DNA of 64,000 nt. Origin: a virus. The notes beneath the pieces are model-generated. The model was not told where the DNA came from and did not search any database. It saw only the letters and a program-made list of their open reading frames with translations. The position numbers were made by a program, and so were the translations under genes. This document shows, piece after piece, positions 5,440 through 64,000 of this stretch. The stretch's first letter is position 1, and every line of letters begins with the position of its first letter. Where the stretch lies: IMG/VR virus record IMGVR_UViG_3300045988_160394, positions 96,001-160,000 of that record, one strand, 5' to 3'.

Positions 5440-5715
5440 ATGACTTTTGAAAAATATTGTAATGGAGTAATTGAAGATTTTATTGAAGATGTTGAGTTAA
5501 AACTATGTCTAGAACTAACTCAAGATCAGAAAGATGATATTTATACAGCTATGGAAGAACATAAAGAATGTTTTGAAGAAGAATATGAATCTTTCTGTAA
5601 AGAAGACGCTGAAATGATTATTTCTGTTATATATTCTGAATCAGTTGCTATAGAATGTATGAATTGTAATGAAACAATTATAGATACTGATGTTTTGTTT
5701 TTAGGTAATGAATAA
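5440..5715 (+). CDS. small acidic hypothetical protein (91 aa)
   Basis: Intact ORF with RBS GGAGGAGG. Its TAA overlaps the next ATG (TAATG). Confidence 0.5.
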   Translation: MTFEKYCNGVIEDFIEDVELKLCLELTQDQKDDIYTAMEEHKECFEEEYESFCKEDAEMIISVIYSESVAIECMNCNETIIDTDVLFLGNE

Positions 5716-7382
5716 TGATAGAAGTAAAAGATTATGGACATTATTATAATGTATCATTCAATGGAGATAAGGATAATTATCATAAATTTTTTAACTTTAT
5801 GGTATCTAAAGATGATATTGTAAAATTAAAAAAGAAAACTGGATGAAAGATGCCTAAATGTTATTTACCTGAATTAGAAGAAACATTTAATAATGTTGTT
5901 GAATTAATAGCTAATCCTTGGGATTATATAGGGGAAGGTTTAAAACTTTCTCCATATTGTTATCAAAAAGAAACAATTAAATTTGGAGTAGATAATAAAA
6001 AAGGTCTATTAATTTTGCCTTGTGGTTCTGGTAAAACACCTATTCTTGTAGGTATATATCATGAACTTAGAAAGAATAATTTAACTACTAAACCAGGAGC
6101 AATTATTGTTAAAGCATCTTTAAAGTATCAATGAGTGAAAGAAGTAGAAAAATTTTCAGATTATATAGCAAAAGCCATAGAAACTCCTTCTAAAGTTAAA
6201 AAGAAATTTGATGAGCAATTTGAAAACGCTGATTTATTTATATTAAATTATGAAACATTAAAGAATAAACAAGTAGCTGCTAAGTTAAGAGAGAAGAATG
6301 TAGAAGTAATGCTATTAGACGAAATACATTACATAAACAATCATACCTCTGCTAGAAGTAAAGCTGCTTATGAATTTAATGATTTGAAGTATTTAATAGG
6401 GGCTACTGCTACGCCAATTACTAATAACCCAGAAAATTTATTTGGAATATTTAATCTTATAGAAAAAGATCTATTCCAGTCCCACAGTAAATTTGCTAGG
6501 TCATATATAAAATATGCTGGTTATGGAAGAGTAGCTGGTTGCAAAAATGAAGATCATTTAAAGAAGAAGATAGCTCCATATATATTTATTAAAAGCGAAG
6601 CAGATGTTGCTGATCAATTGCCATCTCTTGTTGTTAATCAAAAATATTGTTATATTACTAGTCCTATTATGCAAGAAACTAATGCTAAATTGTTTGAGGA
6701 ATTAGATGTAGTCAATAATCAAATTAAACAATTAGAGAAAAGATATCCTAATCCAAAAGATTTAGAATCTAATGAAGAGTTTTTAACAGCTAAAGGTAAG
6801 GTAATGGCATATCAAACTTTTCTACAAGAATTAGTAGACGATCCTAGATTATTAAATGAATCAGAAAGTAATTTAGCTAAACAATATCATTGTCAAGAAG
6901 AATCTCCTAAGTTAAAAATGCTATTTGAACTAGTAGAAGAAATAACTGAAGCTGGTAGTAAAGTATGCATATTTACTAAGTATGTTCGTATGCAAAACAT
7001 ATTACAAAGGGAATTGGAAAGATATTTCGATTTTAAATGTGTTATAATTAATGGCAGTATGACTCCAGAAGAAAGATACGAAGCTGCTTATACTAAATTT
7101 GGAGACAATGATGATTATAAAGTATTGATAGGTACTGATGCTATGGCAGAAGGAATATCTTTATCTAAGTGTAATTATCTTATAGAATATGATTTAGCAG
7201 ATTCATATGCCATTCAGACACAAAGACATGGTAGAATAAAAAGAGCTAATTCAGTTCATAAAACTGGATACGTATATCAATTGATATGCGTAGATAGTTG
7301 GGATGAAGTACAGCAAAAGATAATAGCTAAAAAAGAGAATTATGATAATAATTTAATACAGAATATAGGAGAGTGAAAATAA
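5715..7382 (+). CDS. SNF2-family (SF2) helicase, decoded with TGA=Trp
   Basis: 5715-5849, 5850..6134 and 6135..7376 are one frame joined by TGA at 5844 and 6132. A third TGA at 7374 is followed by AAA TAA. Motifs: LPCGSGKT, SLKYQ[TGA]VKEVEKF (conserved QW..E of motif Ia), LLDEIH, TATPITNNP, QTQRHGRIKR. Confidence 0.8.
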
Positions 7383-9085: not shown

Positions 9086-9334
9086 ATGAAAAAAGTATTA
9101 GTAGAAGAAGAATTCTTATCTAATCAAGGATGTTCTGAAGAATATGAATGAGCCTCTTATGAATTATATGTAGATGGCGAAGAAGTATTAAATTTTAAAC
9201 ATAATACTGAAGTTCCAGAAGAAAATACATTATTTCATAATTTTAAAGACTGTCTTAATATTCTTCCTTTATTAGAAACATTCTATAATTTAGGAAAAAA
9301 CAATATAGATATAGAATTTAAATTGAAAGAATAA
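9086..9334 (+). CDS. small hypothetical protein (82 aa) with one in-frame TGA
   Basis: Runs from ATG 9086 to TAA 9332 and is open only if TGA at 9149 is sense. Missed by the ORF track because it is split into pieces under 60 aa. RBS GGAGGGGG lies rather far upstream (12 nt). Confidence 0.4.
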
Positions 9335-13140: not shown

Positions 13141-13788
13141 ATGTTAATGGATAATGTAAAACAAGTATTTATTGTTCCGTATGATAAAACAACTGATATT
13201 AGTAATGGATTTACTAGACAAAAACATGACGCATCTATTTGAAAAAAATATAATGATATAGGAAAATTTATTGATATTGATGTTGCAAATGATAATATAG
13301 CTATGCAACAAATAACACCTTTTACAATAATAAAAAGAGGTAATAAATATTTAACAACTGTATTTAATCAAAATGGATTTGAAAAATTATCTATTGGAAT
13401 AGGCAATAATATAGAAACTCAAGATGGAGTTTCATCACCTTTGTTTAATGGGGCTGTTAGAACTTTATTAGAAAGTGTAAATATAGATTGTTTAGTTCCA
13501 TTAATCCATGTAGGTACAGTTAGAGATAAAAATAAACTTCCTAATTATATTGGATATGTTTTTGTATTTAATGATATAGCAGAATCTGTTGTATATAAAG
13601 ACAAAATTGCTTATAAAAGTGGTGGTTGTAATTATTATACAAACAATGTTGATAATCACGATAAAGATGATATATCATATGAAATAAAAGGTGAATGGTT
13701 AACAATTGATGAATTAATTAATAAATATGGTAAACTTGATACTTGGACTCGTCATATTGTCAGCTATTTAGTAGATTCTGACTTCTAA
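13141..13788 (+). CDS. hypothetical protein (215 aa) with one in-frame TGA; weak Nudix-like resemblance
   Basis: ATG 13141 follows GGAGG. It is in frame with ORF-track 13303..13788 through TGA at 13240. Confidence 0.55.
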
Positions 13789-13880: not shown

Positions 13881-16013
13881 ATGATGAATCATATTATATT
13901 AAAAAGAGATGGAAGCGAAACTGCTTTTGACTCAAAAAAAATTAAAAATGCTATATTAAAAGCCATGAAAAATGGTAGTGGAATAATAAAGAAAGGCATA
14001 GCTGAACAAATAGCTAATGAAGCAGAAAATGCATTATTCCAATCTGATAATTTACCTACAACTGTAGACCAAGTAGAAGATTATGTTTACTTTGCTTTAT
14101 TAGAATACGGTGAAGACTTAACAGCTAAGTTATATGAAGGATATAGAACCGTACAAGCTTTTAAAAGAAACATTAATACTACTGATGAATCTATATTAGA
14201 ATTAGTTAGTTATAATAATAAAGACGTAATGGAAGAGAACTCTAATAAAAATGCTAGACTAGCTTCTACTCAACGTGATTTAATAGCTGGAGAAGTTAGT
14301 AAAGATATTTCTAGAAGAGTTTTAATTCCAGCAGAATTTGTACAAGCTCATGATGAGGGTATAATACATTGGCATGATATGGACTATAGTTTACAGCCTA
14401 TATTTAACTGCTGTTTATTAAACTTAGAGGATATGCTAGATAACGGAACTGTTATAAATGAGAAACTAGTAGAGTCTCCTAACAGTTTTGCTACAGCATG
14501 TACTATAACTACTCAAATAATGGCTCAAGTATCTTCAGGCCAATATGGTGGTCAATCTATAACCATTAAGCATTTAGCTAAATATTTAAGAAGAAGTAGA
14601 GTTAGATACTATAAGTTATTAAAAGAAACAATAAAAGACGCTAAGGTGTTAAAAGATACACTTGATGTATTATGTAAACAAGAACTTAAAGACGGTATCC
14701 AAACTATTAGATATCAATTAAGTACTCTTCAAACAAGTAACGGGCAAAGTCCTTTCTGCACAATCTATTTAGAGGTAGAAGTGGGAGATCCTTATGAAGA
14801 AGAATGTGCGGCTATCATTGAAGAGATGTTACATCAAAGAATAACTGGAATGAAGAATGTTAATGGTCAAGAAATAGGAGAAGCTTTCCCTAAACTTGTT
14901 TACCTATTAGACGAAGATAATTGTTTAGAAGGAGGCAAATATGACTATTTAACTAAATTAGCTGCTGAATGTACAGCTAAAAGACTTGTTCCTGATTATC
15001 AATCTAAATTAATGATGATGAAGAACTATGAAGGAGAATATTTCCCTCCTATGGGTTGTCGTTCACATTTATCACCTTGGAAAGATGAAAATGGAAAATA
15101 CAAATGGTATGGTAGATTCAATCAAGGTGTTGTATCTATAAACTTACCTCAAATAGGTATTTTAGCTAAAGAAGATCCAGCTATATTCTGGGACTTATTA
15201 GATGAAAGATTAGATCTTTGTAAGAGAGCTTTATTAAAGAGACATGAGCTATTAAAAGGAACATTAAGTGATGTTTCTCCTATCCATTGGCAACATGGAG
15301 CTATTGCTAGACTTAAACCAGGCGAAAAGATAGACAAATATCTTATGGATGGATATTCTACATTATCTTTAGGTTATGTAGGAATTCACGAAATGGTTCA
15401 AGCATTAATAGGTGAATCACATACAACTAAAAAAGGTGAACAATTAGCTGTTGCTGTTATGGAACATTTAAATAACAAATGTAAAGAATGGAAAGCAGAA
15501 ACTGGTTTAGGATTTAGTTTATATGGTACTCCTGCTGAAAGTTTAGTATATAGATTCTGTAGATTAGACAAAGAAAGATTTGGAGAAATTCCTAATGTAA
15601 CAGATAAGTTATATTATACTAATAGCTATCATGTTAATGTACGTGAAGAAATAGATGCCTTTGATAAATTAAAATTTGAAAGTCAATTCCACGATATATC
15701 TTTAGGAGGATGTATTTCATATATAGAAACTCCTAACTTAGTAAACAATACAGAAGCGATAGAAGATGTAATAAGATATGGTTATAGACATATACAATAC
15801 TTTGAAATCAACTCTAGACCAGACGTTTGTTATAAATGTGGGTATAGAGGAGAAATGCAAATAAATGAAAATTTAGAATGGTATTGTCCTTGTTGTGGAA
15901 ATAACGATCAAAATCAAATGCAAGTAATGAGACGTACTTGCGGCTATATTGGCTCTAGTTTCTGGAACAAAGGAAAGACTCAAGAAATTAAAGAAAGAGT
16001 ATTCCATTTATAG
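13881..16013 (+). CDS. nrdD: anaerobic ribonucleoside-triphosphate reductase
   Basis: ATP-cone N-terminus, C-terminal Zn ribbon CYKCGY...CPCCG and glycyl-radical motif RRTCGYIG. All 8 Trp codons are TGG. Confidence 0.95.
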   Translation: MMNHIILKRDGSETAFDSKKIKNAILKAMKNGSGIIKKGIAEQIANEAENALFQSDNLPTTVDQVEDYVYFALLEYGEDLTAKLYEGYRTVQAFKRNINTTDESILELVSYNNKDVMEENSNKNARLASTQRDLIAGEVSKDISRRVLIPAEFVQAHDEGIIHWHDMDYSLQPIFNCCLLNLEDMLDNGTVINEKLVESPNSFATACTITTQIMAQVSSGQYGGQSITIKHLAKYLRRSRVRYYKLLKETIKDAKVLKDTLDVLCKQELKDGIQTIRYQLSTLQTSNGQSPFCTIYLEVEVGDPYEEECAAIIEEMLHQRITGMKNVNGQEIGEAFPKLVYLLDEDNCLEGGKYDYLTKLAAECTAKRLVPDYQSKLMMMKNYEGEYFPPMGCRSHLSPWKDENGKYKWYGRFNQGVVSINLPQIGILAKEDPAIFWDLLDERLDLCKRALLKRHELLKGTLSDVSPIHWQHGAIARLKPGEKIDKYLMDGYSTLSLGYVGIHEMVQALIGESHTTKKGEQLAVAVMEHLNNKCKEWKAETGLGFSLYGTPAESLVYRFCRLDKERFGEIPNVTDKLYYTNSYHVNVREEIDAFDKLKFESQFHDISLGGCISYIETPNLVNNTEAIEDVIRYGYRHIQYFEINSRPDVCYKCGYRGEMQINENLEWYCPCCGNNDQNQMQVMRRTCGYIGSSFWNKGKTQEIKERVFHL

Positions 16014-16028
16014 AAAGAAGTGTTTTAA

Positions 16029-16535
16029 ATGTATTATGCACAAATAAGGCGTAGTGATACAGCTAATGGCCCTGGCGTTAGAGTTTCTCTTTTTGTAAGT
16101 GGATGTACACATAATTGTAAAGGTTGTTTCAATAAAGAACAACAATCATTTACTTATGGTAATATTTTTACACAAGAAGAAGAAAATAAAATTATAGAGT
16201 TAGTTAAAAGAGAAGGAATAAGAGGTATTAACATTTTAGGAGGAGAGCCTATGCAACAAATCATGGACTCTACTCTAGTTAATCTCTTAAAAAGAATTAA
16301 ATCTGAAACAAATAAATCTATATGGCTATGGTCAGGATATCTTTATGAAGATATTATAGCTGATAAAAAAAGATTAGAAATCTTAAAGTACGTAGATGTA
16401 CTAGTGGATGGACAATTCAAAGAACAATTAAAAGACATAAGATTAAAACATAGAGGTTCTTCTAATCAAAGAATCATAGATGTACAACAATCTTTAAAAA
16501 ATAATGTTATAATAGAAAAGGAAGAGCTTTATTAG
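16029..16535 (+). CDS. nrdG: anaerobic RNR activating radical-SAM enzyme
   Basis: CxxxCxxC cluster GCTHNCKGCFN. Lies immediately downstream of nrdD. Confidence 0.9.
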   Translation: MYYAQIRRSDTANGPGVRVSLFVSGCTHNCKGCFNKEQQSFTYGNIFTQEEENKIIELVKREGIRGINILGGEPMQQIMDSTLVNLLKRIKSETNKSIWLWSGYLYEDIIADKKRLEILKYVDVLVDGQFKEQLKDIRLKHRGSSNQRIIDVQQSLKNNVIIEKEELY

Positions 16536-16572
16536 CTTCTTCCTTATTTTATTTCGCTTAGGAGGATTTTAT

Positions 16573-17070
16573 ATGTTAAACAAAATTAAATTACCAATCA
16601 AAGTATTAAGAGATGATGTTATAATACCAAACTATGCTCATGGTGTAGAAGATAGCGGTATGGATTTATATACTGCTGCAATAGCTGTTAAAGTAAATGG
16701 AGAATGGGTAGAATCAGATGAATACACATTATCTCCAAACGAAACAGTTTTAATTAAGACAGGAATAGCAGCTGCTGCTCCAATAGGAACAGAATTACAA
16801 GTTAGACCTACTTCAGGTAATAGCTTAAAAACAATGTTAAGAGTTGCTAATGCTCCTGGAACAATAGATGCAGGATATAGAAACGAAATTGGTGTCATAA
16901 TTACTAATACTGGTACAACTAATGTAACTATAAGTAAAAACGATAAAATAGCTCAAATGGTTTTAGTACCTATTTTACATGCAGATATACAAGTTGTAGA
17001 TGAACTTCCAACATCAGATAGAGGTTTAGATGGTTACGGATCTACTGGTACTATAAAAGACATTAAATAG
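16573..17070 (+). CDS. dut: dUTPase (trimeric dUTP diphosphatase)
   Basis: Motifs SGMDLY, RPTSGNS, GTIDAGYRNEIGVII, AQMVLVP and DRGLDGYGSTG. Confidence 0.8.
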   Translation: MLNKIKLPIKVLRDDVIIPNYAHGVEDSGMDLYTAAIAVKVNGEWVESDEYTLSPNETVLIKTGIAAAAPIGTELQVRPTSGNSLKTMLRVANAPGTIDAGYRNEIGVIITNTGTTNVTISKNDKIAQMVLVPILHADIQVVDELPTSDRGLDGYGSTGTIKDIK

Positions 17071-17078
17071 GTTTTATT

Positions 17079-17456
17079 ATGATATATACAACTTATTTGA
17101 GTAATATAAAATCTATACCAGATAATACTGTAAAAATACTCATAATGAGATATAAACCGAAATGGTTATATAAATATAATGATGACATTGCTTGGGAGCC
17201 ATTATTAGCTCCTAGAATGTTTGATGAGTATAAGTTTGATAACAATATATCAAAACAAGAATTGTTTGATGATTATTACGATTATTTAGAGAATAGCGAG
17301 ATTCCTAGTAAAGTTACATCTAAAATAATTGACTATATAAAAGAAGGCAAAAATGTTTGTTTTATATGTTGTGAAAAAGAATTATATGATTGCCATAGAA
17401 GAGTATTGGCAGAATGTATTTCTAAAAAAACAAACGTAGAATGGAAAGAATTATAA
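17079..17456 (+). CDS. DUF488-like protein
   Basis: C-terminal VCFICCEKELYDCHRRVLAECI matches the LLC.C....CHR signature of DUF488 (recalled). Confidence 0.55.
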   Translation: MIYTTYLSNIKSIPDNTVKILIMRYKPKWLYKYNDDIAWEPLLAPRMFDEYKFDNNISKQELFDDYYDYLENSEIPSKVTSKIIDYIKEGKNVCFICCEKELYDCHRRVLAECISKKTNVEWKEL

Positions 17457-17527
17457 AACGGATTTAAGATTTAATAAAGAAAGGTGGTGGACCTGTTGTA
17501 AAATATATAATAAAGCAACAGGAAACA

Positions 17528-17773
17528 ATGACAAAAGTAAAGTGTGACTTAACAGGATGTAAGTACAATAGTAGCTGCTGTTCATCTCCGCATGATTCAG
17601 TAGAAACATATTGCACTAAAGAGAGTATAGCGTTAGTAGTTGATGAGGATTTCTTATCTATGGATTGTCAAGAATACGTAGATGAATATGATAAAGAAAT
17701 AGAATGTAAATCTTGTCAAATGAAAAAATATGGAGGGATAAAATTCCCAAATAAAATAAATTTTAAATTATAG
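17528..17773 (+). CDS. small Cys-rich protein, DUF1540-like
   Basis: VKCDLTGCKYNSSCCSSP resembles the DUF1540 repeat (recalled). Confidence 0.4.
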   Translation: MTKVKCDLTGCKYNSSCCSSPHDSVETYCTKESIALVVDEDFLSMDCQEYVDEYDKEIECKSCQMKKYGGIKFPNKINFKL

Positions 17774-17834
17774 TATATAGCCTCATATGTGAAGTAATAT
17801 TCTATTGAATATATTTCACTGGAGGTAATGTGTT

Positions 17835-18080
17835 ATGAACGAAAAATTTAAAAATTATGGATTATGGGTTTCTTTATTCGCTTTACTAGGATTATTCTTA
17901 TCTGATATGAGTTGAATGCCTCATAACTATGATATGTATGTATCAATAATACTAAGTATCTTAGTCGGTTTAGGAATAGTTTCTAGCCCTGAAAAAGGAA
18001 AGTGGTATGGTGATAAACAAGATCAACTTCCACAAGAAAATGAAGAACCTAAAGACATATCTGAAAAAGACAAAAAGTAG
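17835..18080 (+). CDS. holin (phiLC3 / Phage_holin_1-like), one in-frame TGA
   Basis: 81 aa with two hydrophobic segments (LWVSLFALLGLFL; VSIILSILVGLGIV) and a charged tail, in the pattern IL.ILV.LGIV..P..G. TGA at 17913 is codon 27. RBS GGAGG. Missed by the ORF track. Confidence 0.6.
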
Positions 18081-18085
18081 TTAAA

Positions 18086-18112
18086 GGACAGGTTTTATAC
18101 CTGTCTTTTTTA
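18086..18112 (+). terminator. intrinsic terminator
   Basis: ggacagg-ttttata-cctgtct followed by a T run. Confidence 0.75.
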
Positions 18113-18142
18113 TTGCAACAAAACATGAGGAGGGAGTAAGAT

Positions 18143-31017: not shown

Positions 31018-31021
31018 TTTA

Positions 31022-32444: not shown

Positions 32445-32479
32445 TTAACCACACAAATATATATGTTAAATCAACAAAA

Positions 32480-41479: not shown

Positions 41480-41498
41480 TTTCATTCTCCTTTATTTA

Positions 41499-51817: not shown

Positions 51818-53259
51818 GGAACATCGCCTCCATATTTACGTATTTTAATAGCTTTTAAATAAGACTTATCTATACTATCTTTGTTATAAGTTCTTATAGT
51901 TGCTTTTATTTTTATAGATGAATTTATAGGATTGTAATTGTATTTATGTTGAGGGAAATAATCTACTGAAAACCTAGACAACATTTGTAGCTTAGCATCA
52001 TCTAATGTTATATCTGTAATAACTCCATCTTTTTTAATAATAGTTTCAGTACTGTAATCTTGATTAAATCTTAATGGTAAAGCTGAAAACAGCTTTTCAT
52101 TCTTTATTATTTTTCTTCCATAAGGTAATATAGGAATATCAACATTACCATCTAAAATACTGTATTCTATTGTAGCTGTATCATCTAGTACTTCTTCAAC
52201 ATGTAATTGTATAAATTCTTTTTCAGATAATTCTCCTATATTAATAGCTTCTGATATGAAACAACTATCTTTTTCTTGTTCAATATTTTTCATAACTATT
52301 GAGTCTAGTCCAAACATATAAGTATACATAGATTTTTCAACTATATTATTTTTATTAGGAATATTATTATTGTATATATCTGTTTTATCTCCACTCACTC
52401 TAGCAATTATCTCTTCCATCTCTATTTTTGAATCAATATTAAAAGCATAATTATATTCATATTCTTTTATCCTATTTCATACATCTTCTGTTAACTTATC
52501 TTTTTGTACGTAATAAGTTGACTTGTTGTAATTCTTACAAACCAAATCGAATTTAATTTGAGTAATAATAGCAGAAGGCATTATTCCAGTTTTATAATCT
52601 CTTTTCTCTTCTATTCCGTTAAGATAAACCACTCTAAAATTCTCTATATTACAATTTACTTTTTTTAAATCTATATAGTTAATTGTTTGAGGTTTATCCA
52701 ATGTAATAGTTATTGTTTCAACTACACCTTTACTAGCTATTCTTTCTTCAATAAAATAACTTCTATAATATTCATTTTTTATATTATTAATATTATTGTA
52801 ATAAGGAACGAATACGCTCTTTTTTGAAACATTGGCATATGTTATAGGAGTTTCTCTTTTAATTCCTAAAGTTAAAGCTCCTTCTTTATATAAAGCGTTA
52901 GAAATTACTTCATTATTTCTATCTTTTTTAACAGATAAATCATCTTTAAAATTACATAAGTATTCTATATAAGCATTGTTTCTGTTTATATCTCTGATAT
53001 CTTCTATAGCTTTTAAAGTTTGAGTAATGTCTTGCTCATATTCATTTATTTTTAAATTTAGAAAAGCATCACAATAAGATATTGCATCTTCTAAATATCT
53101 TGTATTTTCATATAATGTATTTAATGAATTTTCTATATTTGAAAAGACTTCATTCATATCATTGCTATTTAAATAAATATCTTGTGGTTTATATTCAGTA
53201 TTGATTTCTCTTTTAATTTGTTCTAAGCAATAATTAAAATCAATCTTTGTTTTATCCAT
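51802..53259 (-). CDS. virion-module protein (485 aa), fusion via TGA
   Basis: 52477..53259 and 51802..52419 share one frame. The bridge was checked. TGA at 52477. Confidence 0.55.
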
Positions 53260-53326
53260 GTTATCACCTCTTAATTATTATATTATACAAAAAGAGGCGA
53301 ATATAGATTCACCTCTTCCTTATTGT

Positions 53327-54718
53327 CTATCTAGGATATATTAAACATAATACTTTTTTAGTTTCAACTGAATCATTTGATTCTAATGCTTTTCCTATTA
53401 TATTATCTTTTATAAGATTATTAGAACTACAAGATGCACCTAATCCATCTTTAGCTAATGCTATCTTATCTCCATTTTTAACTGGTCCAACGACATTAAC
53501 ATGGACTTTACCTATTAATCCTACTGGTATCTTTATACCTTTTTCAAGTTCTTCTTCTGTAGCTCCTAAACAGTTAGCATATTCATTAGATACTGTTCCC
53601 ACTATTGGGAAGTGTGAATTAGGATCACCTTTTACCAATAATCCTTTGTCATTAACTTGAACTATGTCTCCTGGTATAAATACAACATCTTTATCTGGTT
53701 CATATGCTTCTGCTATATCCATGAATGTTGAATTATAAATTCTAGTAGCATTAATAGTACCTTTAGCTTCTATATTACCATTTACATTTAAGTCTTTTCT
53801 TAAATTTACATTGTTATCATTATCATACATAACAGGATCGCCTATTAAATCTACAACATCTTTAGCTAGTTTTTCTCTAGTTACAGAATTGTTTTCATAA
53901 GCTGATGTTGGTATAGATAAGTCAGAATAATGCTTTTTCTTAATAGCTCTTGGAGCTATATTATTACTATCAACACATTCATTATCTAAATGCTTATTTT
54001 TTATATTTCTATCAGCTATTTTAGGTTCAGTAACACATCCATTCATTAAATGTTCAGTATTAACTGCATTTATAGCTAAATGTATGTTTTCTACACCAGC
54101 TCTTTTAATTACATCTCCTCACACACTTTGATGTTTAAAAGCTGTATGAGGAACACATTCTTCTGAGAAATGTCTTTCTAGTAAACATTTGTTTTTTAAA
54201 ATTCTACCATCTATAGTATTATCGTTTAAGTTTATACCTTCTAAAGTTCTGTCAGCTATTTTTGAACCAGTAATAGTTTTATCTTTGAATTTGATTCCTT
54301 CTAGTTCATTATTCTTAACATGCCTATTAAGTATATTACTATCTTTTACTTTAGAACTAGTAACTGATTGGTTATCTAATTTAGGTTCAGTAACAGATAG
54401 ATTTGCAAGTTTAGGCTCGGTAACAGATAAGTTTTCTAAAGTTCTCTCATTAATAGCTCTATCAGCTACTTTTATATTAGTAACACTTTTATCAGCTAAT
54501 AATTTAGTAGGTATAGATCCTTCTAATAATACTTGAGCAGCATCTAAAAAAGATAAAGTGTTTTTACCTGTTTTTATTTTAATTCCTTTTTTATTACTAT
54601 CAGTTCATAAAGCTCCTATTGATATAGCATCATTATCAGGAACTAATGGATCTGTTATTAAAAATGCTCTTTTTTCAATAACGACGTTTTCGCTAATTTT
54701 TTTAATACCTTCAGCCAT
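53327..54718 (-). CDS. tail-fibre protein with N-terminal tandem repeats and a chaperone-like C-terminus (463 aa), two in-frame TGAs
   Basis: ATG 54718 follows GAAGGGAGA. The frame was checked through TGA at 54605 and 54119 into ORF-track 53327..54046. Contains repeats of the type SVTNIKVADRAI / SVTEPKLANL / SVTEPKLDNQ / ITGSKIADRTL / VTEPKIADRNI. Confidence 0.65.
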
Positions 54719-56726: not shown

Positions 56727-59558
56727 TTACCTCCACTCAAAAGTTATTTCACTAATAACAGGGTTAGCTACATATGGCTTACCATGTTCTAGTATATATT
56801 TTTCATGTTCTAATGGGTTTAATTCAAAGTATCTAGCTATTGGATCTATATTTAAAACATTATCCAACTCTTTATCTAATAAAGTTATAGATTTATTTTC
56901 TCTATTTATAATATATTCCCCAGTATATATTACTCCATCTATATATATTTTTATTAAATCTTGTGTAGAAAATAAGCTTCTAGGGATTGAATCGTCTTCC
57001 ATATAGAAAATTCTTTGTCCAGGATATCTAACATTAATTGCTTGTGATTTTATATTAAAGTCTTGTCTTACTTCAACTAATATATAATCATCTCTTTCAC
57101 AATCAATTTCTACTTTTCCTTTTTTATTGTATATAACATATTTGCTCCAAGTTTCTCTATTCTCAGGATCATAGTTGTTTTGATTACCAACTATTTGTTT
57201 ATGGATAACTATTGTATTTTCATTAACTATAGTAAAATCCTTTCTATTTAATCTTACTCCATTAACATATACAGTTACTACACCTGGAGTCATTGAAATG
57301 TTAGTAGTATATCCTCCACTAAAATCCATTGTTCTATTAGCAGCTGTTAATACTTCTTTTTGACAAGATACCGTTTCAGTTTTTTCAGGACGTTCTACAT
57401 AATACATTAACTCTCCATCTTCATATGGATCTAATCCCTCAACAGATTCCATAGTAGGAATGATAAACTTACCTGTATTAGAACTCTCTTCTGAAACATC
57501 ATAGTTCAATAAATTATTAGTAAATACAGTTAATGCTCCTTCATTGTTACTAAACATATGCTCTACATTTACAGAATAAACAGTCTTATCTTTTATTAAA
57601 GATTGTTTACCTTTTAATAAAGGTTCTTCTACTCCATTAGAATATGTGTATGCATAAAATGTACCTTTCTTGCCTTTTAAATCTTTACTATCTAACATAA
57701 TAGAACCAGCTGAATAGTTACCTTTTATCATACTAGTAATAGCATTTATAGATTCAAAGTCTCTTATTTCTATCCATTTTTTTGTACTATCATTTCATTC
57801 ATAGTATTTATATACTTCTGAACTAGACATAGTATTTTTAACTTTAACTATTTGACCTGAAGCACCTTTTATAGGTAAAGCTTCTCTAAGGATAGAATCT
57901 TCCATAGGAATCATTTTACCATCAGCGAATATAAGAGCGTTATTACATTCATTGTACATAGTACCGTCTTCATTATTAATAGCTACGGTAAAATTCATAA
58001 CTTTAGTATCGAATGATAAAGCAGTATTGCTATCGTCTTTTATTTTTAATAATACGTATTGTTGCCCTTCTTTAGCATTAGATATTCTTATTTCTCCTTC
58101 AGAAACATCTAATTCTCTTGATGACATTAATAATCCATCTATAAATAATAAATATTCATCTTTTGGATTGTTAGTAATCTCACTATTTCTAATAGCTATT
58201 TTAGAATCTATTTTACCATGACAAACATACATATTATCTGCTTCAACTATCATTACTTTTACTGGAGCTTCTATAGTGTCTAATCCTCAGTTTTTAATTA
58301 ATAAGCTATCACCTTGGAAAGTAATTTCTTCTGGAGATACTATATTAGTACCCATAACCCCAGAAACAAAAGCTAATGGCTTTTTAAAATTAACTGCATT
58401 AGTAAAAGTACCTACTAAAGTATCAGTTCCTGAACTAGTAATATTATTAATTTCTTTTTCTCCAGTTGATTCTTGATCTTGGAATACTACAGCCATCATA
58501 TCCATTGGATTTATTATTGTGTCGTTTATTTGTATTTTTCCACTAGCTGAATCATAATTATATTTAGTTTGTTCTAAATATAAACCATCTAAGAAAATCA
58601 TTGGTCTTTTGGTTAATTGACCTATTTGTACTTCAGATTGGCTTCCAATAGTAAAATCATTTCTAATAAGCTTTCCTGGTTTTTGTGTATCTTGAAAAAC
58701 ATAAGATACAGAATAAATATAGTTAGCTGCTTTAGCTTTTTCACTTATGATTTCTATACCTTTATCAAACGTTTTGTAATCGTAAGTTAAAGTTTTACCT
58801 GTATAAGGTATCATAGCTATACCATTGTTACTAACTGGATCTAGATAATAAAATTCTGTATTATGATCGAATAATCCATATATCTTATAATCATCTTCAG
58901 CTTTATTTATTTTTAATAGCTTCTTTTCTATTTTGAATGTTTTATTAGCATTAACATGTATCCATGATTCTTTTTCATCTATAGAAGTTGTATCATATTT
59001 AACACTAACATCTGATAAAGTATGATATTTTTCATCAGTTGGATGAATAAAGATTCCATTATCAAATAGCTTACCATATTCAGAATAAGGAACTAGGAAT
59101 GTCTTTCTTCCTTCTACATCATCCATATCTTTTATTGGCACAATGTTTATAAAGTTATTATGCATATCTACTAATACATTTTCAGCAGTAGTATTTACAG
59201 ATTTTACAGCAATCCAACTATTAGTATTCTGATCATATCTTTTTAAAATATCATCTTCATCTAACCATAGTTGACCATTAACAGGGTTTAAAGGTTTATC
59301 TTTCATGTTGACAGGATGATAAAAATCATTAAAAGCTGGCACTCATTTATTGTCAGTATTTTTAACTTTTAGAACATTAAGTCCTCTGCTATTATCATTC
59401 CAAATAGCACCAACAGGAATATCTGTTTGTTTATCTTTTATTGGCTGAGTAGGTCCATTATTGATATATCTTAATGCCATAAGTAAATCATAAAGTTCTT
59501 GATTTAATGTCAAATCACTTTGACGACCTATAGAAAATTTTCTAGCCACTATCTTCAC
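56727..59558 (-). CDS. large baseplate/tail structural protein (943 aa), fusion of four ORF-track fragments via three TGAs
   Basis: 59343..59558, 58287..59342, 57795..58253 and 56727..57731 are all in one frame. The bridges were checked. TGA at 59343, 58287 and 57795. The true stop is TAA at 56727. Confidence 0.6.
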
Positions 59559-59594: not shown

Positions 59595-61517
59595 TTAAAT
59601 AATATTAATATCTGCTATTATAGCATCTCAATATTTTTCTTCATTTTTAGTATTAGGTGTTAACATCTTTGAATTCAGCTTTCTATTAAAAGCATCATTA
59701 TTTAGTATACTATTTATACCATTATTAATGATTCTTAAAGAGTCAACTAATTCATTATATATATCACAAGTTATAAAAGTTTCTCTAGGAACTATTCTAG
59801 TAAAGTTAAAGAATCTATTATAAGCTTTTGCTTTATCATTTATATAATCTTGTAGTTCTTTTATCAAATAGCCTTCTGTTATTTCTAATGCCCTTATCTT
59901 ATCTAAAGCTTCTCTTCTTTTAAAATTATATGTTTCTGAAATAGGAGATTCTCCATAAACATTTCTCATATAAGCTTTAATAGCTATAGTCTCTTTACTT
60001 GTAAGATTGTTATCATCTGGAGCTACAAACATAACTTTATCTCCACTTATAGAAAAACATTCTGAATATTTTTTATTGTCATAATCTATTCCATTTAAAT
60101 TAACGATAAAAGTGCTTGCTCCATCATATCCAGAAAATATAAATCTAGGAGATATGCTATAAATTCCAGTGTTAGGCACTGATGGAGAAACTAATTTAGG
60201 AGTACCTTTCGGTTTAGAACCTTTTTTAAAATCTATCTTATAAGACCAATCGCTATATAATAATCCATCAGTAGATCTTACTCATACTTCATAATCACAT
60301 CCATCAGGATCTGAACCTATATCAAAGTTATATGATGTATCTTTTATTCTACTTTCAATAATCTTATCTCTTATTTTATAGCCATCAGCATCTATAGTTT
60401 TTATTCATACTTCATAAGAAACGCTATCTTCATCTGGATCACTAGAAGCATCTCAAGTAAATGTTAAATCATTATAAATAATATTTCTTTTACCTGAAAC
60501 AGATAAGTTTTGAGGGGTAGTCGGTCTACCATTATATCTATGTCCACCAACTAAACCTGTTCCTGTAGACTCTTTTCCATAAGCATTTTTAGCTCATGCT
60601 TGATAATATACATCATGGCCTTCATGCTCTCTGCCGAAATAAGCATCGAAATCTATATCATAATCTCATGATTGACCAGCATAAAAAGTTCCACTTGTAT
60701 CGTATGTTCTTATTTCTTTTTGGATTCCATTACAATATGCTCTTAATCATATTTCACCAGAAGCGTTATTATTATCTACATACTTTAATGTTAACTTTCC
60801 ACTACTTCCTTTAGCAGGATGAATATTTAATTCAGGATTAACAGCATCTTTTACTATGCCAGATGTTACAACACTATCATAATAATATTTTCTAAAATAA
60901 AAAGCACAACTCTTTCTACTTATTTGTTTATATCCAGAGTCAGAAATTCATCCATTAGAGCTGTTTGCACTACCATTAAGTTGTTCGAATCTACCATTAT
61001 CATGAGCCCAGTTATTAGTATCTTGACCATGTTTATAAGCCCAATCTGACCATGCACATGTATGATAGTCTCAGTCTTTAGGAACTATTGCATATATACC
61101 ATAAAGGTTGTTTTTAGGTTTTGCTGGAGTGCTATCTGTAAAATTACCATAAGAATATCTACTTAAATTGTTACCATAGTTACCATAATAGAAAAAAGGA
61201 ATAGAACCATCTGTACATTGGAAGTGATACCCCATTGTTTTCAATGAGTACAATCCTTCAGCTTGAACTGTTACATCATTCTCATCTATGTCTATAGAAA
61301 TTGTTTCAGTAGTATCGTAACTTACCCATGGTTTGTTTCCTACTTTTATTCTTGCCTCAACTAGTTCTATACCTTCTCATATTCCTTTCCTAGCAGTAGT
61401 CCCTCCACCAACATGTGTTGCTGTATAATTTGATCTAGAACAAGTTATGCTTTTAGGACTTAAATCAAAAGTAACACGACATTTATTATTAACAATACTC
61501 GTACTATGATTTATCAC
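59595..61517 (-). CDS. FN3-domain-containing virion protein (640 aa), ten in-frame TGAs
   Basis: The frame was checked triplet by triplet from GTG 61517 to TAA 59595. TGA at 61377, 61071, 60948, 60747, 60666, 60594, 60453, 60405, 60282 and 59628. FN3-like region: PTTPQNLSVSG..LTFT[W]DASSDPDEDSVSYEV[W]IK...DYEV[W]VRSTDGLLYSDWS. Confidence 0.65.
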
Positions 61518-64000
61518 TATTTTTCACCGCCTTATTTTTTAATAAAGTTATTTCATCTTTTAATTTAATTATTTCTTTATGAGCTTCTTTTAATCCTTGC
61601 CATAATACAGCTGTTACAGCAACAGGATCTATTGTTTTTAAATCATGTAGATCATTACCGTTTTTATCTTTAGGGAATATTATATCTCCACTTTCTATTT
61701 CTTTATCAGTAAATTTCATAGTATTAACTGTTAAAGGGAATTGTGCTTCTAAGTCTTGAGCAAAGAAACCAAATATAGGAGTTTGTGAAGTATCTTGTGC
61801 ATAGCAGTATATCTTTGGTTTAATAGTATCTATTTTTTCTAATATTGTTCTTTCATCTGGATCGTCACTTAATTTAGAAAATTGAGTTAATTCAATTTTA
61901 GTTCTTTCGTCAGATTGTTGACGATATACTTTAGCATAAATATCTACATATTGTCCTTCTATATTTGCAAAATGTCATCCATAGTTACCTGAACGTCCTT
62001 CACAATATAAATCGGGCTGAGAACTACATCATGATACTAATTTTGCATCTAATTTTACATCTCCTGTAGCATGCATAGCACCTGTTTGGAATGTATTTAC
62101 GTTTTCTAATATTAATTGCTTACCATCTTGTTTGTAATACATTCTTCCATTTTCTCCACCACCATATCAGTCATGGATTCTAAGATATTTTCATGCAATT
62201 AAATCTCCTCATGCTTCTATATTATTTTGTGCAATAAAGTGTCCAGAAGCTTTTAATTTAGTATCTTCAAATACATCTAATCTATAATGGAAGTCTTTTG
62301 CCGAATCCTCATTATAATGGAAGTCTATAAATCTACCTATTTCCATTACACCATCATTACCTATTATAGGAATAGTGTTTCTATTTTTTCCATTAGAAGC
62401 TCCTACTCAGTTACCATTTATATTTTTAGTATAAGTTGAATTAAATGGTCATTCTGAAGTTCCTAAAGAACTAGCCCCTCCACCAGAGAATGGTATTAAC
62501 CCTAGTTTAGTAGTTCTAATTCATTCATTGTTAGAATTATTTCTACCTCTCATACCATAGTAATCACCTTCATCTGTTCCATAATAACAACCCATTGCAC
62601 CTATATCTCCTATAGATATGTTATTTATTTTAGAACAAGACACTTGTCTTCCTCCTGGAGGATTCTGCTGTAACTTTTGATTACTAAACATTGTTACATC
62701 ACCAGAACTCATTATTAAGCTAAAAGATATAAAAGTGTAACTTTGATCACATTTTACTCATAACTCATAATCTGTTAATTTATTAGTTTTTGTTATTTCT
62801 ATTAATTTAAAGTTGTTTTCGTTTATAGTTAAATAATCAGATAAAAATAAACTACAAGCTGTTTCTTGCCCCATAGCTGCTTGTTGTTTTACTCTAGCAG
62901 TTATTTCTCCTTTGATTGGAGTAGTTCTACCAGAACCATGATCAAGCACTTTTATAATAGCTTGAGCATCATCATATTGATAATGTATTTTAAAACTAGC
63001 TACTCTACTTCACCATCCAACTTTATCTCCGTTTGTTCCTTCTGTTTCGTATCCTCTATTTGAAAAGCTATTAGCACGAGCAGTTCCATTAACTAATAAA
63101 GGATATTTTTCTTCAGCTTTTGCTCCACCTACTCCTAATCCATACTTATTAATAAATGCTACAGAGTTTACAGCTGGAATACTTGTAGAATAAGAATGTG
63201 TTCCTGATAATCCTAAACCATCTAAAAAGCTTACATGGAAACCATGTGCATACTCACCAAATAAAGATATGTTTAATGTTTGTATATCTTGTGTGTTTTT
63301 TAATTCTCCTCTAATCTCTTGACCTTTTTCGCCAACACAATTCCATTGTCCTTGAATCTCAACTCCAGGTATAGATGTATTAGCTTTTACTGATAACTGT
63401 ATTTTTGCATCAGCTGATGTTCTTGTCATAGAGTTTATTGATAATGTTGGAGGATTATAATAATGTATATCTACTGCTCCTGAATCTAAAAAGTTATCTG
63501 TACCATAATCAGAAACTACATGAACTCCAAAAGCTAATGTGTGTTTACTATTTTGTTTTGGTAATGTTACAGAATAATTTTTTGTTGAGCTATTAACTTC
63601 AGTTATATAAGAAGCATGTCCATCAATTATTTGATGTAATGTATATTTAAATCCTCCTCCTAATGGATCTCCTCCACCTTCCCATGAGAAAGTAATAGTA
63701 TCACTACCATTAGGAACATAATATTTTTGCCCATTGTGACAAGTTTTTAAAGCTGTTCCTCCTGATATCCATACTCTGCTTGGAGGATTTGGAGTTGCTC
63801 TAATATCTACTCATACTGTTCTACTACTAAATTTAGAACTTCCATTATTATTTTTAGTAGCTAATCCAATATGGAGATTACCTTTATAAGAATTTCCTGA
63901 AAAAGCTTTCTTCAAATCATCAAATTTTATATAAGGACCAGAAGGTGTACTTCCTCCTTTTCATATTGTTATAGTATCTGAAGTTCCAGTAACGTCTCTT
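61504..64000 (-). CDS. large tail-fibre protein, 5' end outside the window, at least 12 in-frame TGAs, C-terminal intramolecular-chaperone-like tail
   Basis: ORF-track fragments 63010.., 62758.., 62521.. and 61504.. are all in one frame. Every line from 61681 to 64000 was checked and is free of in-frame TAA/TAG. The C-terminus DPVAVTAVLWQGLKEAHKEIIKLKDEITLLKNK resembles the end of S74-type chaperone domains. Confidence 0.65.

What the first reader, a model, noticed from the sequence alone, without database searches (positions are those of the whole stretch)
5715..64000. The window decodes coherently only with TGA = Trp (translation table 4)
I located about 50 in-frame TGA codons in at least 20 genes. 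Wherever an ORF-track fragment ends in TGA, the same frame continues without TAA or TAG. It runs either into the next fragment or to a nearby TAA/TAG; for example, the SNF2 gene ends TGA-AAA-TAA. Every gene end I checked is TAA or TAG, so no gene needs TGA as its stop. The TGAs fall on positions that are Trp in the families concerned: SNF2 motif Ia SLKYQ[TGA]VKEVEKF; FN3 strands LTFT[TGA]DAS, SYEV[TGA]IK and DYEV[TGA]VRS; Amidase_3 [TGA]GADLFISIHF. Stop-codon-recoded phages are known from metagenomic surveys (Ivanova et al. 2014; Borges et al. 2022). A standard table-11 annotation would shatter this region into fragments.
Basis: partly seen in the sequence, partly recalled or inferred. Interest (0 to 1): 0.9.

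Follow-up and report, generated by a model that had tools for sequence, protein, structure and literature searches.

The report
Jumbo phage reading TGA as tryptophan
This 64-kb stretch of a 263-kb gut-type jumbo phage reads the stop codon TGA as tryptophan in about a third of its genes (mostly tail and lysis genes plus one sigma-like regulator) but not in its core replication genes, which is a clear new example of the already described 'stop-codon-recoded' phages.

Summary
About 50 in-frame TGAs lie inside 17 genes, against about 150 TGG. After an in-frame TGA the frame stays open for a median of 281 codons, against 6 for off-frame TGAs. Single Pfam domains span TGAs. No gene needs TGA as its stop, whereas standard-code relatives end 14.6% of orthologous genes in TGA.

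TGA means Trp, not Gly. At 27 sites a relative's DNA has TGG. Near-identical strains swap TGA and TGG. One protein's internal repeat pairs TGA with TGG.

The window is part of a 263,172-bp contig, so this is a jumbo phage. Most relatives use the standard code. Recoding is partial: replication genes have 3 TGA and 69 TGG, structural and lysis genes 35 and 49. This fits the published model of a phage that switches code late while infecting a standard-code, cell-walled host. It is a new member of a known kind.

A sigma-like gene writes every Trp as TGA in four recoded genomes (25 TGA, 0 TGG). The only tRNA-like gene in the window has an aberrant anticodon arm without UCA. The suppressor was not found in the roughly 81 kb I could read. 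The Amidase_3 Trp claim was overstated.

The parts
5715..7382 (+). SNF2-family helicase. Internal TGAs at 5844 and 6132. A terminal TGA at 7374 is followed by AAA-TAA.
   Evidence: Pfam SNF2-rel_dom and Helicase_C span the TGAs. TGA 6132 aligns to the motif Ia Trp of 1z63 and is TGG in 14 of 14 relatives; TGA 5844 is TGG in 3 of 3. TGA 7374 aligns to the relatives' TAA stop. The source record splits the gene into 43, 94 and 413 aa.
9086..9334 (+). Small gene with one TGA (9149).
   Evidence: ORF continuity only; no informative homologue.
13141..13788 (+). Gene of unknown function with one TGA (13240).
   Evidence: TGG in 3 of 3 closest standard-code relatives.
17835..18080 (+). Small membrane-like gene with one TGA (17913).
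   Evidence: ORF continuity only.
26093..30247 (+). 1384-aa lysin-like protein (Amidase_2, SH3_3, NlpC/P60). TGAs at 26321 and 26729, with 21 TGG.
   Evidence: The Amidase_2 domain (residues 35-153) spans TGA idx 80.
31018..32513 (.). Non-coding block of about 1.5 kb where the two gene arrays converge. It is specific to this lineage and has 34.5% GC against 28% for the window.
   Evidence: Standard-code relatives have the DNA polymerase gene 10-40 nt from the convergent ORFs. No nucleotide homology in any fetched locus. GC. A bidirectional terminator lies at 32477-32510.
31183..31266 (+). Skipping-rope RNA (Rfam RF02924), an orphan structured RNA.
   Evidence: 57.6 bits against a gathering score of 36.7. 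Function unknown (PMC5737381).
32370..32444 (+). tRNA-like gene with an encoded CCA and an aberrant anticodon arm (3 extra nt, no UCA). It is the only tRNA-like element in the window.
   Evidence: Rfam tRNA 45.2 bits. Missed by default ARAGORN. Relaxed ARAGORN gives contradictory UUA-with-intron or GCA readings. The anticodon stem is not formed in the MFE fold. Absent from 22 relatives' loci scanned with Rfam and from IMG/VR.
35970..36695 (-). Collagen-like protein with an internal duplication. TGAs at 36462 and 36438.
   Evidence: Copy 1 reads ...HIE[TGA]RYKGTDL[TGA]NQLIALTELKG. Copy 2 reads ...HIEWQYAGTDSWQQLIALTELKG with TGG at both positions. Pfam Collagen.
37184..38449 (-). Endolysin (Amidase_3 + SH3_3). 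One TGA at 38237.
   Evidence: The Amidase_3 domain spans the TGA. The site is TGG in the 4 closest homologues and N, Q, G or L in PDB amidases.
40586..41485 (-). Sigma-like transcription regulator. All 7 Trp codons are TGA (41423, 41297, 41258, 40973, 40922, 40835, 40748) and there is no TGG.
   Evidence: Sigma70_r4 or r4_2 in 64 of 65 family members. The top 50 Foldseek hits are all sigma factors, with E of 0.03 or worse. TGA columns are Trp in 63/64, 64/64, 52/64 and 32/64 homologues. Four recoded genomes total 25 TGA and 0 TGG against 17 and 80 in neighbouring genes. Standard-code relatives have 3-4 TGG and 0 TGA.
44404..44658 (-). Small Cys-rich protein. Its single Trp codon is TGA (44467).
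   Evidence: TGA is kept in all three other recoded genomes; TGG in 10 standard-code relatives.
46178..47188 (-). Primase-like protein (PriCT_1). One TGA at 46334.
   Evidence: The PriCT_1 domain spans the TGA. TGG in 35 of 35 relatives.
49310..54718 (-). Four putative structural genes (49310-50494, 50495-51817, 51802-53259, 53327-54718). TGAs at 50096, 51296, 52477, 54605 and 54119.
   Evidence: TGG in strains or relatives at 50096, 51296 and 52477. Syntenic with L001-L004.
56727..59549 (-). 940-aa tail-associated protein. TGAs at 59343, 58287 and 57795.
   Evidence: TGG at all three sites in L001 or in strains.
59595..61517 (-). 640-aa FN3-containing tail protein. 10 TGA and 5 TGG.
   Evidence: 51 full-length homologues. 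Trp is 51 of 51 at four TGA columns and the commonest residue at four more. TGG at 8 of the 10 sites in L001 DNA.
61504..64000 (-). Tail fibre with a C-terminal Peptidase_S74 chaperone domain. It runs off the window. 12 TGA and 5 TGG.
   Evidence: Pfam. The full-length 1124-aa homologue is in L002 and L003. Strains have TGG at 62029 and 61975.
13881..21217 (+). Part of the TGA-free replication and nucleotide-metabolism set: NrdD (13881-16013) and DnaE-like polymerase 1 (18143-21217). This span also contains the TGA-bearing small gene 17835-18080, listed separately.
   Evidence: PHROG annotation. NrdD and polymerase 1 together have 0 TGA and 13 TGG.
32514..35849 (-). DnaE-like polymerase 2. TGA-free, with 14 TGG.
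   Evidence: PHROG 405; codon counts. The exact protein is on NODE_19_length_263172.

Best explanation
The window is 24% of a jumbo phage genome of about 263 kb in which UGA has been reassigned from stop to tryptophan, but only part of the gene set uses it.

Shown:
- TGA is a sense codon in 17 genes.
- It stands for Trp.
- TGA has been purged as a terminator.
- Core replication genes avoid it, while tail, lysis and other structural genes and a sigma-like regulator are rich in it.
- More distant family members, and some relatives at similar distance, use the standard code with TGG at the same positions.

Inferred:
- The host is a cell-walled, standard-code bacterium, probably a Firmicute.
- Early genes are translated with the host's code.
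- A phage-supplied opal suppressor, expected to be a tRNA-Trp with anticodon UCA and possibly helped by RF1 or TrpRS as in some 'Jade' phages, is made later and licenses translation of the TGA-bearing genes. UGA would then act as a timing lock on late functions.
- The sigma-like gene has every Trp written as TGA, and extra TGA codons were gained. It is plausibly the most tightly locked step, coupling the code switch to late transcription.

The suppressor itself was not found in the roughly 81 kb I could read.
For: Sense reading:
- Frame continuity, p = 1e-33.
- Pfam domains span TGAs.
- ORF coverage rises by 8-14 points with TGA as sense but not with TAG as sense.

Trp identity:
- TGA and TGG swap between strains that are 96-100% identical.
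- 27 sites have TGG in relatives' DNA.
- Homologue columns are Trp-dominated.
- SNF2 motif Ia Trp.
- The intra-protein repeat pairs TGA with TGG.

TGA stops purged: 0 of 56 here against 59 of 405 in relatives, P = 1.5e-4.

Partial, class-specific use:
- 3 TGA and 69 TGG in replication genes against 35 and 49 in structural and lysis genes, Fisher 1.5e-8.
- 30% of genes carry TGA. This lies within the 26-71% reported for recoded phages of standard-code hosts and far from the roughly 90% reported for phages of recoded hosts.

Host:
- The phage carries three peptidoglycan hydrolase domains (Amidase_2, Amidase_3, NlpC/P60) and SH3 wall-binding domains.
- Relatives use the standard code.
- Family contigs are binned with Clostridia, Bacilli and Gemella MAGs.

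Sigma-like gene: 25 TGA and 0 TGG in four recoded genomes against 17 and 80 in neighbours, Fisher 4e-15.

Genome size: 263,172-bp source contig.
Against: - No UCA-anticodon tRNA, TrpRS or release-factor gene was seen in the window, in its roughly 17 kb of flanks, or in the recoded relatives' loci. About 180 kb of the genome could not be read.
- The temporal order of expression is inferred from gene function only.
- SNF2 and a PriCT primase are nominally replication genes yet carry TGA, so the early/late split is not clean.
- The host is not identified directly.
- There is no translation-level evidence.
Confidence: 0.85

Rival explanations
1. The phage infects a host that itself uses table 4 (a Mycoplasma- or Spiroplasma-like Mollicute or another UGA = Trp bacterium). 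It has simply adapted to its host's code, so there is no code switch.
For: TGA = Trp and the low GC content (28%) are both typical of Mollicutes. No phage-encoded suppressor was found in the sequence available.
Against: - Only 30% of genes and 25% of Trp codons use TGA, and ten core replication genes have 0 TGA among 67 Trp codons (P = 4e-9). An AT-rich phage adapted to a code-4 host should carry TGA everywhere. Borges et al. report about 90% of genes for host-matched recoded phages.
- The phage carries Amidase_2, Amidase_3, NlpC/P60 and SH3 wall-binding domains, which are pointless against wall-less Mollicutes.
- Relatives at similar distance, down to 61-78% protein identity, use the standard code and TGA stops.
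Confidence: 0.08
2. TGA encodes glycine (table 25), as in phages of Gracilibacteria and Absconditabacteria.
For: Table 25 also makes TGA a sense codon, so the ORF-continuity evidence alone cannot exclude it.
Against: Gly is absent from all 10 TGA columns of the FN3 protein and all 7 of the sigma-like protein, while Trp is at or near fixation at several. Strains and relatives show TGA to TGG changes. The in-protein repeat pairs TGA with TGG.
Confidence: 0.01
3. The TGAs are real stops. The genes are pseudogenes, or the TGAs are assembly or sequencing errors, or they are read through or skipped only rarely.
For: A table-11 gene call does produce fragments.
Against: - The same TGAs recur in independent assemblies from other samples and at conserved positions in genomes only 63-68% identical.
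- Frames remain open for hundreds of codons.
- Essential tail, lysis and regulator genes would all be broken.
- Leaky read-through cannot yield product from genes with 10-12 TGAs.
Confidence: 0.01

Closest known systems
TGA-recoded (code 4) gut phages of standard-code hosts, in particular the 'Jade' clade of Borges et al. 2022 (preprint 10.1101/2021.08.26.457843)
   Same: TGA read as Trp. Genome of about 200 kb or more. A Firmicutes-type host is indicated. Only a minority of genes carry in-frame TGA. TGA is concentrated in structural and lysis genes scattered in several modules, and replication genes are largely standard. Close relatives use the standard code.
   Different: No 'code change module' (suppressor tRNA, TrpRS, RF1) lies upstream of either lysin gene in this window. 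At 263 kb the genome is larger than the reported clade mean. Clade membership, which is defined by terminase phylogeny, could not be tested. The most TGA-biased gene here is a sigma-like regulator, a class not among the preferentially recoded families that paper lists.
TGA-recoded 'Agate' phages (same paper)
   Same: [quoted passage not shown] Recoded and standard-code genomes are interleaved at short distances (compare).
   Different: Agate genomes are about 127-154 kb.
TAG-recoded crAss-like and Lak phages (code 15), validated by metaproteomics (PMC9523058)
   Same: The same logic applies: a stop codon is reassigned in late genes of a phage infecting a standard-code host, presumably through a phage suppressor tRNA.
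   Different: The codon is different (TAG), the amino acid is different (Gln), and the hosts are different (Bacteroidota).
Mollicute code 4 and their phages
   Same: The same codon-to-amino-acid reassignment (UGA = Trp) in an AT-rich genome.
   Different: There TGA is the dominant Trp codon genome-wide and the host lacks peptidoglycan. Here TGA makes up 25% of Trp codons, is absent from core replication genes, and the phage carries several peptidoglycan hydrolases.

Membership tests
Code-4 (TGA = Trp) recoded phage of a standard-code host | In-frame TGA inside genes with recognisable homologues, with the reading frame continuing | tested here: met
   About 50 TGAs in 17 genes. Median 281 codons to the next TAA or TAG, against 6 for off-frame TGAs. 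Pfam domains span TGAs.
Code-4 (TGA = Trp) recoded phage of a standard-code host | TGA positions correspond to Trp (TGG) in homologues | tested here: met
   TGG in relatives' DNA at 27 sites. Trp in 51/51, 63/64 and 64/64 homologues at several columns. TGA and TGG swap between strains.
Code-4 (TGA = Trp) recoded phage of a standard-code host | TGA not used as a terminator | tested here: met
   0 of 56 gene ends, against 59 of 405 in relatives. One TGA lies at an ancestral stop position but is backed by a TAA two codons later.
Code-4 (TGA = Trp) recoded phage of a standard-code host | Partial recoding: early and replication genes are readable in the standard code, late genes are not | tested here: met
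   3 TGA and 69 TGG against 35 and 49, Fisher 1.5e-8. 30% of genes carry TGA.
Code-4 (TGA = Trp) recoded phage of a standard-code host | Phage-encoded opal suppressor tRNA (anticodon UCA) | tested here: inconclusive
   None in the window, in about 17 kb of flanks, or in the recoded relatives' loci, by ARAGORN, Rfam and a custom scan. About 180 kb of the genome was unreachable.
Code-4 (TGA = Trp) recoded phage of a standard-code host | Host uses the standard code | not testable with these tools
   Indirect evidence only: peptidoglycan hydrolases, standard-code relatives, and family contigs binned with Firmicutes MAGs.
Code-4 (TGA = Trp) recoded phage of a standard-code host | Peptide-level evidence of Trp at UGA | not testable with these tools
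   Needs proteomics.
Jade clade (Borges et al.) | Placement in the clade by terminase phylogeny | not tested
   There is no terminase in the window and no Jade sequences were on hand. GenBank phages gave only hits below 35% identity.
Jade clade (Borges et al.) | [quoted passage not shown] | tested here: not met
   No such genes lie next to the endolysin (37184-38449) or the large lysin (26093-30247).
Table 25 (TGA = Gly) | Gly at TGA columns of homologues | tested here: not met
   0 Gly at 17 well-aligned columns.
Phage of a code-4 (Mollicute-type) host | TGA is the dominant Trp codon, present in nearly all genes | tested here: not met
   25% of Trp codons and 30% of genes. 0 of 67 Trp codons in ten core replication genes.
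Sigma70-family sigma factor (gene 40586-41485) | Region 4 helix-turn-helix | tested here: met
   Sigma70_r4 or r4_2 in 64 of 65 family members. The window protein scores 21 bits, just under the 24.1-bit cutoff.
Sigma70-family sigma factor (gene 40586-41485) | Region 2 domain and overall sigma fold | tested here: inconclusive
   AlphaFold model pLDDT 83. All top 50 Foldseek PDB hits are sigma factors, but E is 0.03 or worse and TM is 0.2-0.3.
Canonical tRNA (32370-32444) | Acceptor stem, T-arm with TTCGA loop, 3' CCA | tested here: met
   Rfam 45.2 bits. 7-bp acceptor, GTAAG-TTCGATT-CTTAC T-arm, A73 followed by CCA.
Canonical tRNA (32370-32444) | 5-bp anticodon stem closing a 7-nt loop with U33 and a purine at position 37 | tested here: not met
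   There are 3 extra nt. The alternative readings need a 5-nt 'intron' or have A33 and U37. The MFE fold does not form the arm.

The most novel reading that the evidence does not exclude
In this sub-lineage the code switch may be wired into the transcription programme. A phage sigma-like factor is written so that it can be made only once UGA is read as Trp. All ancestral TGG codons were converted and 2-4 extra TGA codons were gained, and the pattern is conserved in four genomes that have diverged to 60-73% identity. That would make opal suppression the licensing step for late transcription. The lineage-specific 1.5-kb non-coding block, with its non-canonical tRNA-like gene and skipping-rope RNA, may be part of an unconventional code-change apparatus that standard tRNA finders miss.
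Probability: 0.2. Interest if true: 0.7.

Novelty: new member of a known kind. Interest (0 to 1): 0.4.

Why it matters
For annotation, the consequence is immediate. The public record of this 263-kb genome was gene-called with table 11. As a result its tail fibres, endolysin, SNF2 helicase and sigma-like regulator are fragmented or missing, so any functional or host-range inference drawn from that record is wrong.

Biologically, the window is a clean example of the idea that phages use a reassigned stop codon as a timing lock on late genes. Within one 64-kb stretch, ten core replication genes have 0 TGA among 67 Trp codons, while tail genes have about 70%. Recoded and standard-code relatives also sit side by side for comparison.

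The opal-only sigma-like gene suggests a concrete, testable link between the code switch and late transcription that the surveys did not report.

Tried and rejected
- **Near-identical DNA in GenBank phages:** none. Protein-level search with the DnaE-like polymerase gave only hits below 35% identity, so no annotated relative could be read whole.
- **IMG/VR search with the 940-aa tail protein:** no relatives.
- **Walking along the 263-kb source contig:** A chimeric query meant to retrieve IDs for flanking proteins returned only homologues of 44% identity or less, not the exact proteins. About 180 kb of the genome stayed unread.
- **tRNA-like gene as the opal suppressor:** considered and rejected. 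It contains no UCA, its anticodon arm is non-canonical, and its discriminator (A73) and first pair (C1-G72) do not resemble the tRNA-Trp sequences I recall from memory.
- **Exact 25-mer of its 3' half in IMG/VR:** no match.
- **Rfam scans of 22 relatives' loci for tRNA-like or skipping-rope elements:** nothing but one group I intron.
- **Custom relaxed scan for UCA stem-loops followed by a T-arm:** one spurious hit antisense to a coding gene.
- **Non-coding block 31.0-32.4 kb:** MFE z-scores are unremarkable and there is no match to any large ornate RNA family in Rfam.
- **Naive total-ORF counts across all six frames:** these do not discriminate between codes in this AT-rich sequence. Coverage restricted to the coding strand was used instead.
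- **Automatic start-codon picking:** it mis-set the SNF2 and DnaB starts. The counts were corrected by hand.

Full report
**What the window is**

The sequence has 28% GC. Genes lie on the + strand from 1 to about 31 kb and on the - strand from about 32.5 to 64 kb, so the two arrays converge.

PHROG and Pfam annotation shows a large phage. It carries:
- two DnaE-like polymerases, NrdD, UvrD, SNF2, DnaB, DnaG, a PriCT primase, RecJ and a resolvase;
- an Amidase_3+SH3 endolysin and a 1384-aa Amidase_2/NlpC-P60 lysin;
- a collagen-like protein, a sigma-like regulator and a block of large tail or fibre genes.

An exact-protein look-up places the window on ENA contig ERZ1756024 NODE_19_length_263172, so this is a jumbo phage. 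Related contigs of 150-277 kb are common in IMG/VR and in public assemblies. No close relative exists among GenBank phages.

**Checking the observation**

With only TAA and TAG as stops, the coding-strand ORFs contain 56 in-frame TGA, 156 TGG, and 44 TAA plus 12 TAG ends. Removing the TGAs that lie upstream of likely starts leaves about 50 inside 17 genes of at least 80 aa.

This is far beyond chance:
- After an in-frame TGA the frame stays open for a median of 281 codons, and 53 of 56 reach at least 50.
- After the 1,282 off-frame TGAs in the same genes the median is 6 codons, and 0.9% reach 50 (p = 1e-33).
- Single Pfam domains run across TGAs: SNF2-rel_dom, Amidase_2, Amidase_3, PriCT_1 and Sigma70_r4.
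- ORFs of at least 200 aa cover 66.9% of the coding strand under table 11 and 81.1% with TGA as sense. A TAG-as-sense control gives 67.9%.

The predicted shattering under table 11 is visible in the source record's own gene calls. SNF2 is split into 43, 94 and 413 aa, the endolysin is truncated to 324 aa, and no gene is called at the sigma-like locus.

**Which amino acid**

I masked TGA as X so that hit recruitment could not favour Trp.

*FN3 tail protein (10 TGAs).* It has 51 full-length homologues. Trp occupies 51 of 51 at four TGA columns and is the commonest residue at four more. The background Trp frequency is 2.5%, and Gly never appears at these columns.

*Sigma-like protein (7 TGAs).* Trp occupies 63/64, 64/64, 52/64 and 32/64 homologues at four columns. 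Every Trp-rich column of the family coincides with a window TGA.

*DNA-level check.* Some database proteins were themselves called with table 4, so I checked the DNA directly.
- Strains from other samples at 96-100% identity (L002-L004) have TGG at 5 window TGA sites and TGA at 1 window TGG site, with no other change there.
- A 151.7-kb relative (L001) has TGG at 15 window TGA sites. Its FN3 gene, which accounts for 8 of them, translates under table 11; the contig carries a few in-frame TGAs elsewhere.
- 46 IMG/VR loci with essentially no in-frame TGA give 167 pairings of window TGA with relative TGG. Examples are PriCT at 32 of 32 and sigma idx 218 at 46 of 46.
- SNF2 relatives give 3 of 3 and 14 of 14.

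Overall, 27 of the roughly 50 sites have TGG in at least one relative's DNA.

*Internal control.* The collagen-like protein contains a duplicated segment in which two TGAs in copy 1 align with two TGGs in copy 2.

*Solved structures.* The SNF2 TGA aligns to the motif Ia Trp of 1z63. That site is therefore a lineage-specific Trp, TGG in the 4 closest homologues, and not a family-conserved one.

**TGA as a stop**

No window gene needs TGA as its stop. In standard-code relatives, 59 of 405 orthologous gene ends (14.6%) are TGA. At that rate the chance of seeing none in 56 genes is 1.5e-4.

The one near-terminal case is SNF2. Three relatives at 77-78% identity end ...GGT GAA TAA, and the window reads ...GGA GAG TGA AAA TAA. 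The TGA therefore occupies the ancestral stop position and a TAA follows two codons later. This looks like a stop that mutated to a now-sense codon and is tolerated because a backup stop is close.

**Recoding is partial and specific to gene class**

Thirty-nine of 56 genes have no TGA. Replication and nucleotide-metabolism genes have 3 TGA and 69 TGG. Structural and lysis genes have 35 and 49 (Fisher p = 1.5e-8). Ten core replication genes have 0 TGA among 67 Trp codons (P = 4e-9 at the overall rate).

In an AT-rich genome that read TGA as Trp throughout infection, G-to-A mutation pressure should spread TGA everywhere. Its exclusion from replication genes argues that those genes must be readable while TGA still means stop.

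The share of genes carrying TGA is 30%. Borges et al. report 26-71% for recoded phages of standard-code hosts and about 90% for phages matched to recoded hosts. Three further points favour a cell-walled, standard-code host over a Mollicute-type code-4 host:
- the phage carries peptidoglycan hydrolases and SH3 wall-binding domains;
- its relatives use the standard code;
- family contigs are binned with Clostridia, Bacilli and Gemella MAGs.

**Where recoding sits in the family**

On the sigma-like protein, the recoded genomes are the window, L052, L053 and L054, and the standard-code genomes include L007, L074 and L077. The two groups are interleaved at 60-73% identity. The closest standard-code relatives share 77-78% identity in SNF2. 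This matches the published observation that genetic code changes over short evolutionary distances within phage clades.

**The sigma-like gene**

Gene 40586-41485 has 7 TGA and no TGG. Three other recoded genomes, 63-68% identical, have 5/0, 7/0 and 6/0 (TGA/TGG). Their flanking RecJ, resolvase, DnaB and PriCT genes stay almost entirely TGG. The pooled counts are 25 TGA and 0 TGG for the sigma-like gene against 17 and 80 for its neighbours (Fisher p = 4e-15). Even at the tail-gene rate of 0.68, 25 out of 25 has P = 6e-5.

Standard-code relatives have 3-4 TGG and no TGA. The recoded lineages therefore converted every ancestral TGG and gained further TGA-Trp codons at sites that are F, Y, K or C elsewhere.

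The sigma identification is reasonable but not proven:
- the region 4 helix-turn-helix matches in 64 of 65 family members;
- a confident model (pLDDT 83) has its top 50 PDB matches all among sigma factors, but only at E of 0.03 or worse.

Borges et al. list lysis, tail and intron-endonuclease families as preferentially recoded, and no transcription factor. I infer that this regulator is deliberately locked behind opal suppression.

**Mechanism: what was and was not found**

The expected agent is a phage opal suppressor tRNA, with RF1 and TrpRS in some Jade phages. Default ARAGORN finds no tRNA in the window or in any flank.

Rfam finds one tRNA-like gene at 32370-32441 (+), scoring 45.2 bits. 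It has a good acceptor stem, D-arm and T-arm and an encoded CCA. Its anticodon arm has three extra nucleotides and contains no UCA. Relaxed ARAGORN gives two incompatible readings: UUA after removing a 5-nt 'intron', or GCA with A33 and U37. The arm does not form in the minimum-energy fold. I do not regard it as the suppressor.

It lies at the end of a non-coding block of about 1.5 kb (31018-32513, 34.5% GC). The block also holds a skipping-rope RNA at 57.6 bits, and it ends at a bidirectional terminator. Standard-code relatives lack the block entirely: their polymerase gene sits 10-40 nt from the convergent ORFs. None of the 22 relatives' loci scanned with Rfam has either RNA. Whether the block is linked to recoding is unknown, because the three recoded relatives' contigs end before that position.

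A custom scan for UCA stem-loops followed by a T-arm found nothing credible. About 180 kb of the genome could not be reached.

**Comparison with what is known, and verdict**

Borges et al. surveyed it in depth, and it is now handled by dedicated annotation tools. Alternative coding has been validated by metaproteomics for code 15 (PMC9523058).

This window meets every sequence-level criterion of that class. The suppressor tRNA is the exception, and its test is inconclusive for lack of the rest of the genome. The closest described group is the Jade clade (about 200 kb, Firmicutes hosts, TGA-recoded). Membership could not be tested, and the Jade code-change module is not next to either lysin here.

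I classify the finding as a new member of a known kind. The opal-only sigma-like gene and the odd tRNA-like and skipping-rope block are the parts worth a follow-up. Interest: 0.4.

Noticed in passing
window 32370-32444 (+): tRNA-like gene with a canonical acceptor stem, T-arm and encoded CCA, but an anticodon arm with 3 extra nt and no readable canonical anticodon. Default ARAGORN misses it; Rfam scores it 45.2 bits. It was not seen in any relative examined.
   Followed up: partly
window 31183-31266 (+): A full-length skipping-rope RNA (RF02924, 57.6 bits), an orphan structured RNA of unknown function. Here it sits in a jumbo phage about 1.1 kb upstream of the tRNA-like gene.
   Followed up: partly
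window 31018-32513: Non-coding block of about 1.5 kb with relatively high GC (34.5%), located where the two gene arrays converge. It is absent from standard-code relatives, whose polymerase gene abuts the next ORF. It has no Rfam match apart from the two elements above, and its MFE z-scores are unremarkable.
   Followed up: partly
window 7374-7382 (+): SNF2 ends ...GAG TGA AAA TAA, while three standard-code relatives end ...GAA TAA at the position of the TGA. This is an ancestral stop converted to a sense TGA, with a backup stop two codons later.
   Followed up: yes
window 18143-21217 (+) and 32514-35849 (-): Two paralogous DnaE-like (Pol III alpha) polymerases of about 1,000-1,100 aa in the same phage. 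Both match PHROG 405 and both are TGA-free.
   Followed up: no
window 35970-36695 (-): Collagen-like protein with two Gly-X-Y tracts, each followed by a duplicated segment of about 30 aa. It lies between the endolysin and polymerase 2.
   Followed up: partly
window 41499-42107 (-): A 198-aa protein that the source record's precomputed Pfam table tags as Bax1-I (Bax inhibitor-1/YccA-like membrane protein). It lies immediately upstream of the sigma-like gene and contains no Trp codons. It is a possible lysis-timing membrane protein.
   Followed up: no
L005 1-9290 (the 9.3 kb left of the window on the source contig): Carries RecA-like, thymidine kinase, Tad2-like (anti-Thoeris), Rad52-like and UDG-like genes and a 730-aa kinase/phosphatase/T4-type RNA ligase fusion (a tRNA-repair type enzyme). 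Homologues of the ligase fusion in other jumbo phages carry LAGLIDADG or HNH insertions.
   Followed up: no
L021 15120-15484: A group I intron (RF00028, 55.9 bits) in a standard-code relative, in the neighbourhood of the polymerase and RecJ genes.
   Followed up: no
L056 and L057 (GTDB genome records JBGVED010000022.1, USNF01000001.1): Contigs of 208-238 kb labelled as 'Bacilli bacterium' and 'uncultured Gemella sp.' MAGs carry this phage family's gene neighbourhood. They are probably phage genomes binned into, or mistaken for, bacterial MAGs.
   Followed up: no
L052, L053, L054: All three recoded relatives' contigs end within about 3 kb downstream of the sigma-like gene, just short of the polymerase and tRNA-like position. 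This may be coincidence, or an assembly break at a variable or repeated region.
   Followed up: no
L002 3369-6560: Just beyond the window's right edge, a 1063-aa structural gene carries 11 in-frame TGAs, so the TGA-rich structural block continues outside the window.
   Followed up: partly
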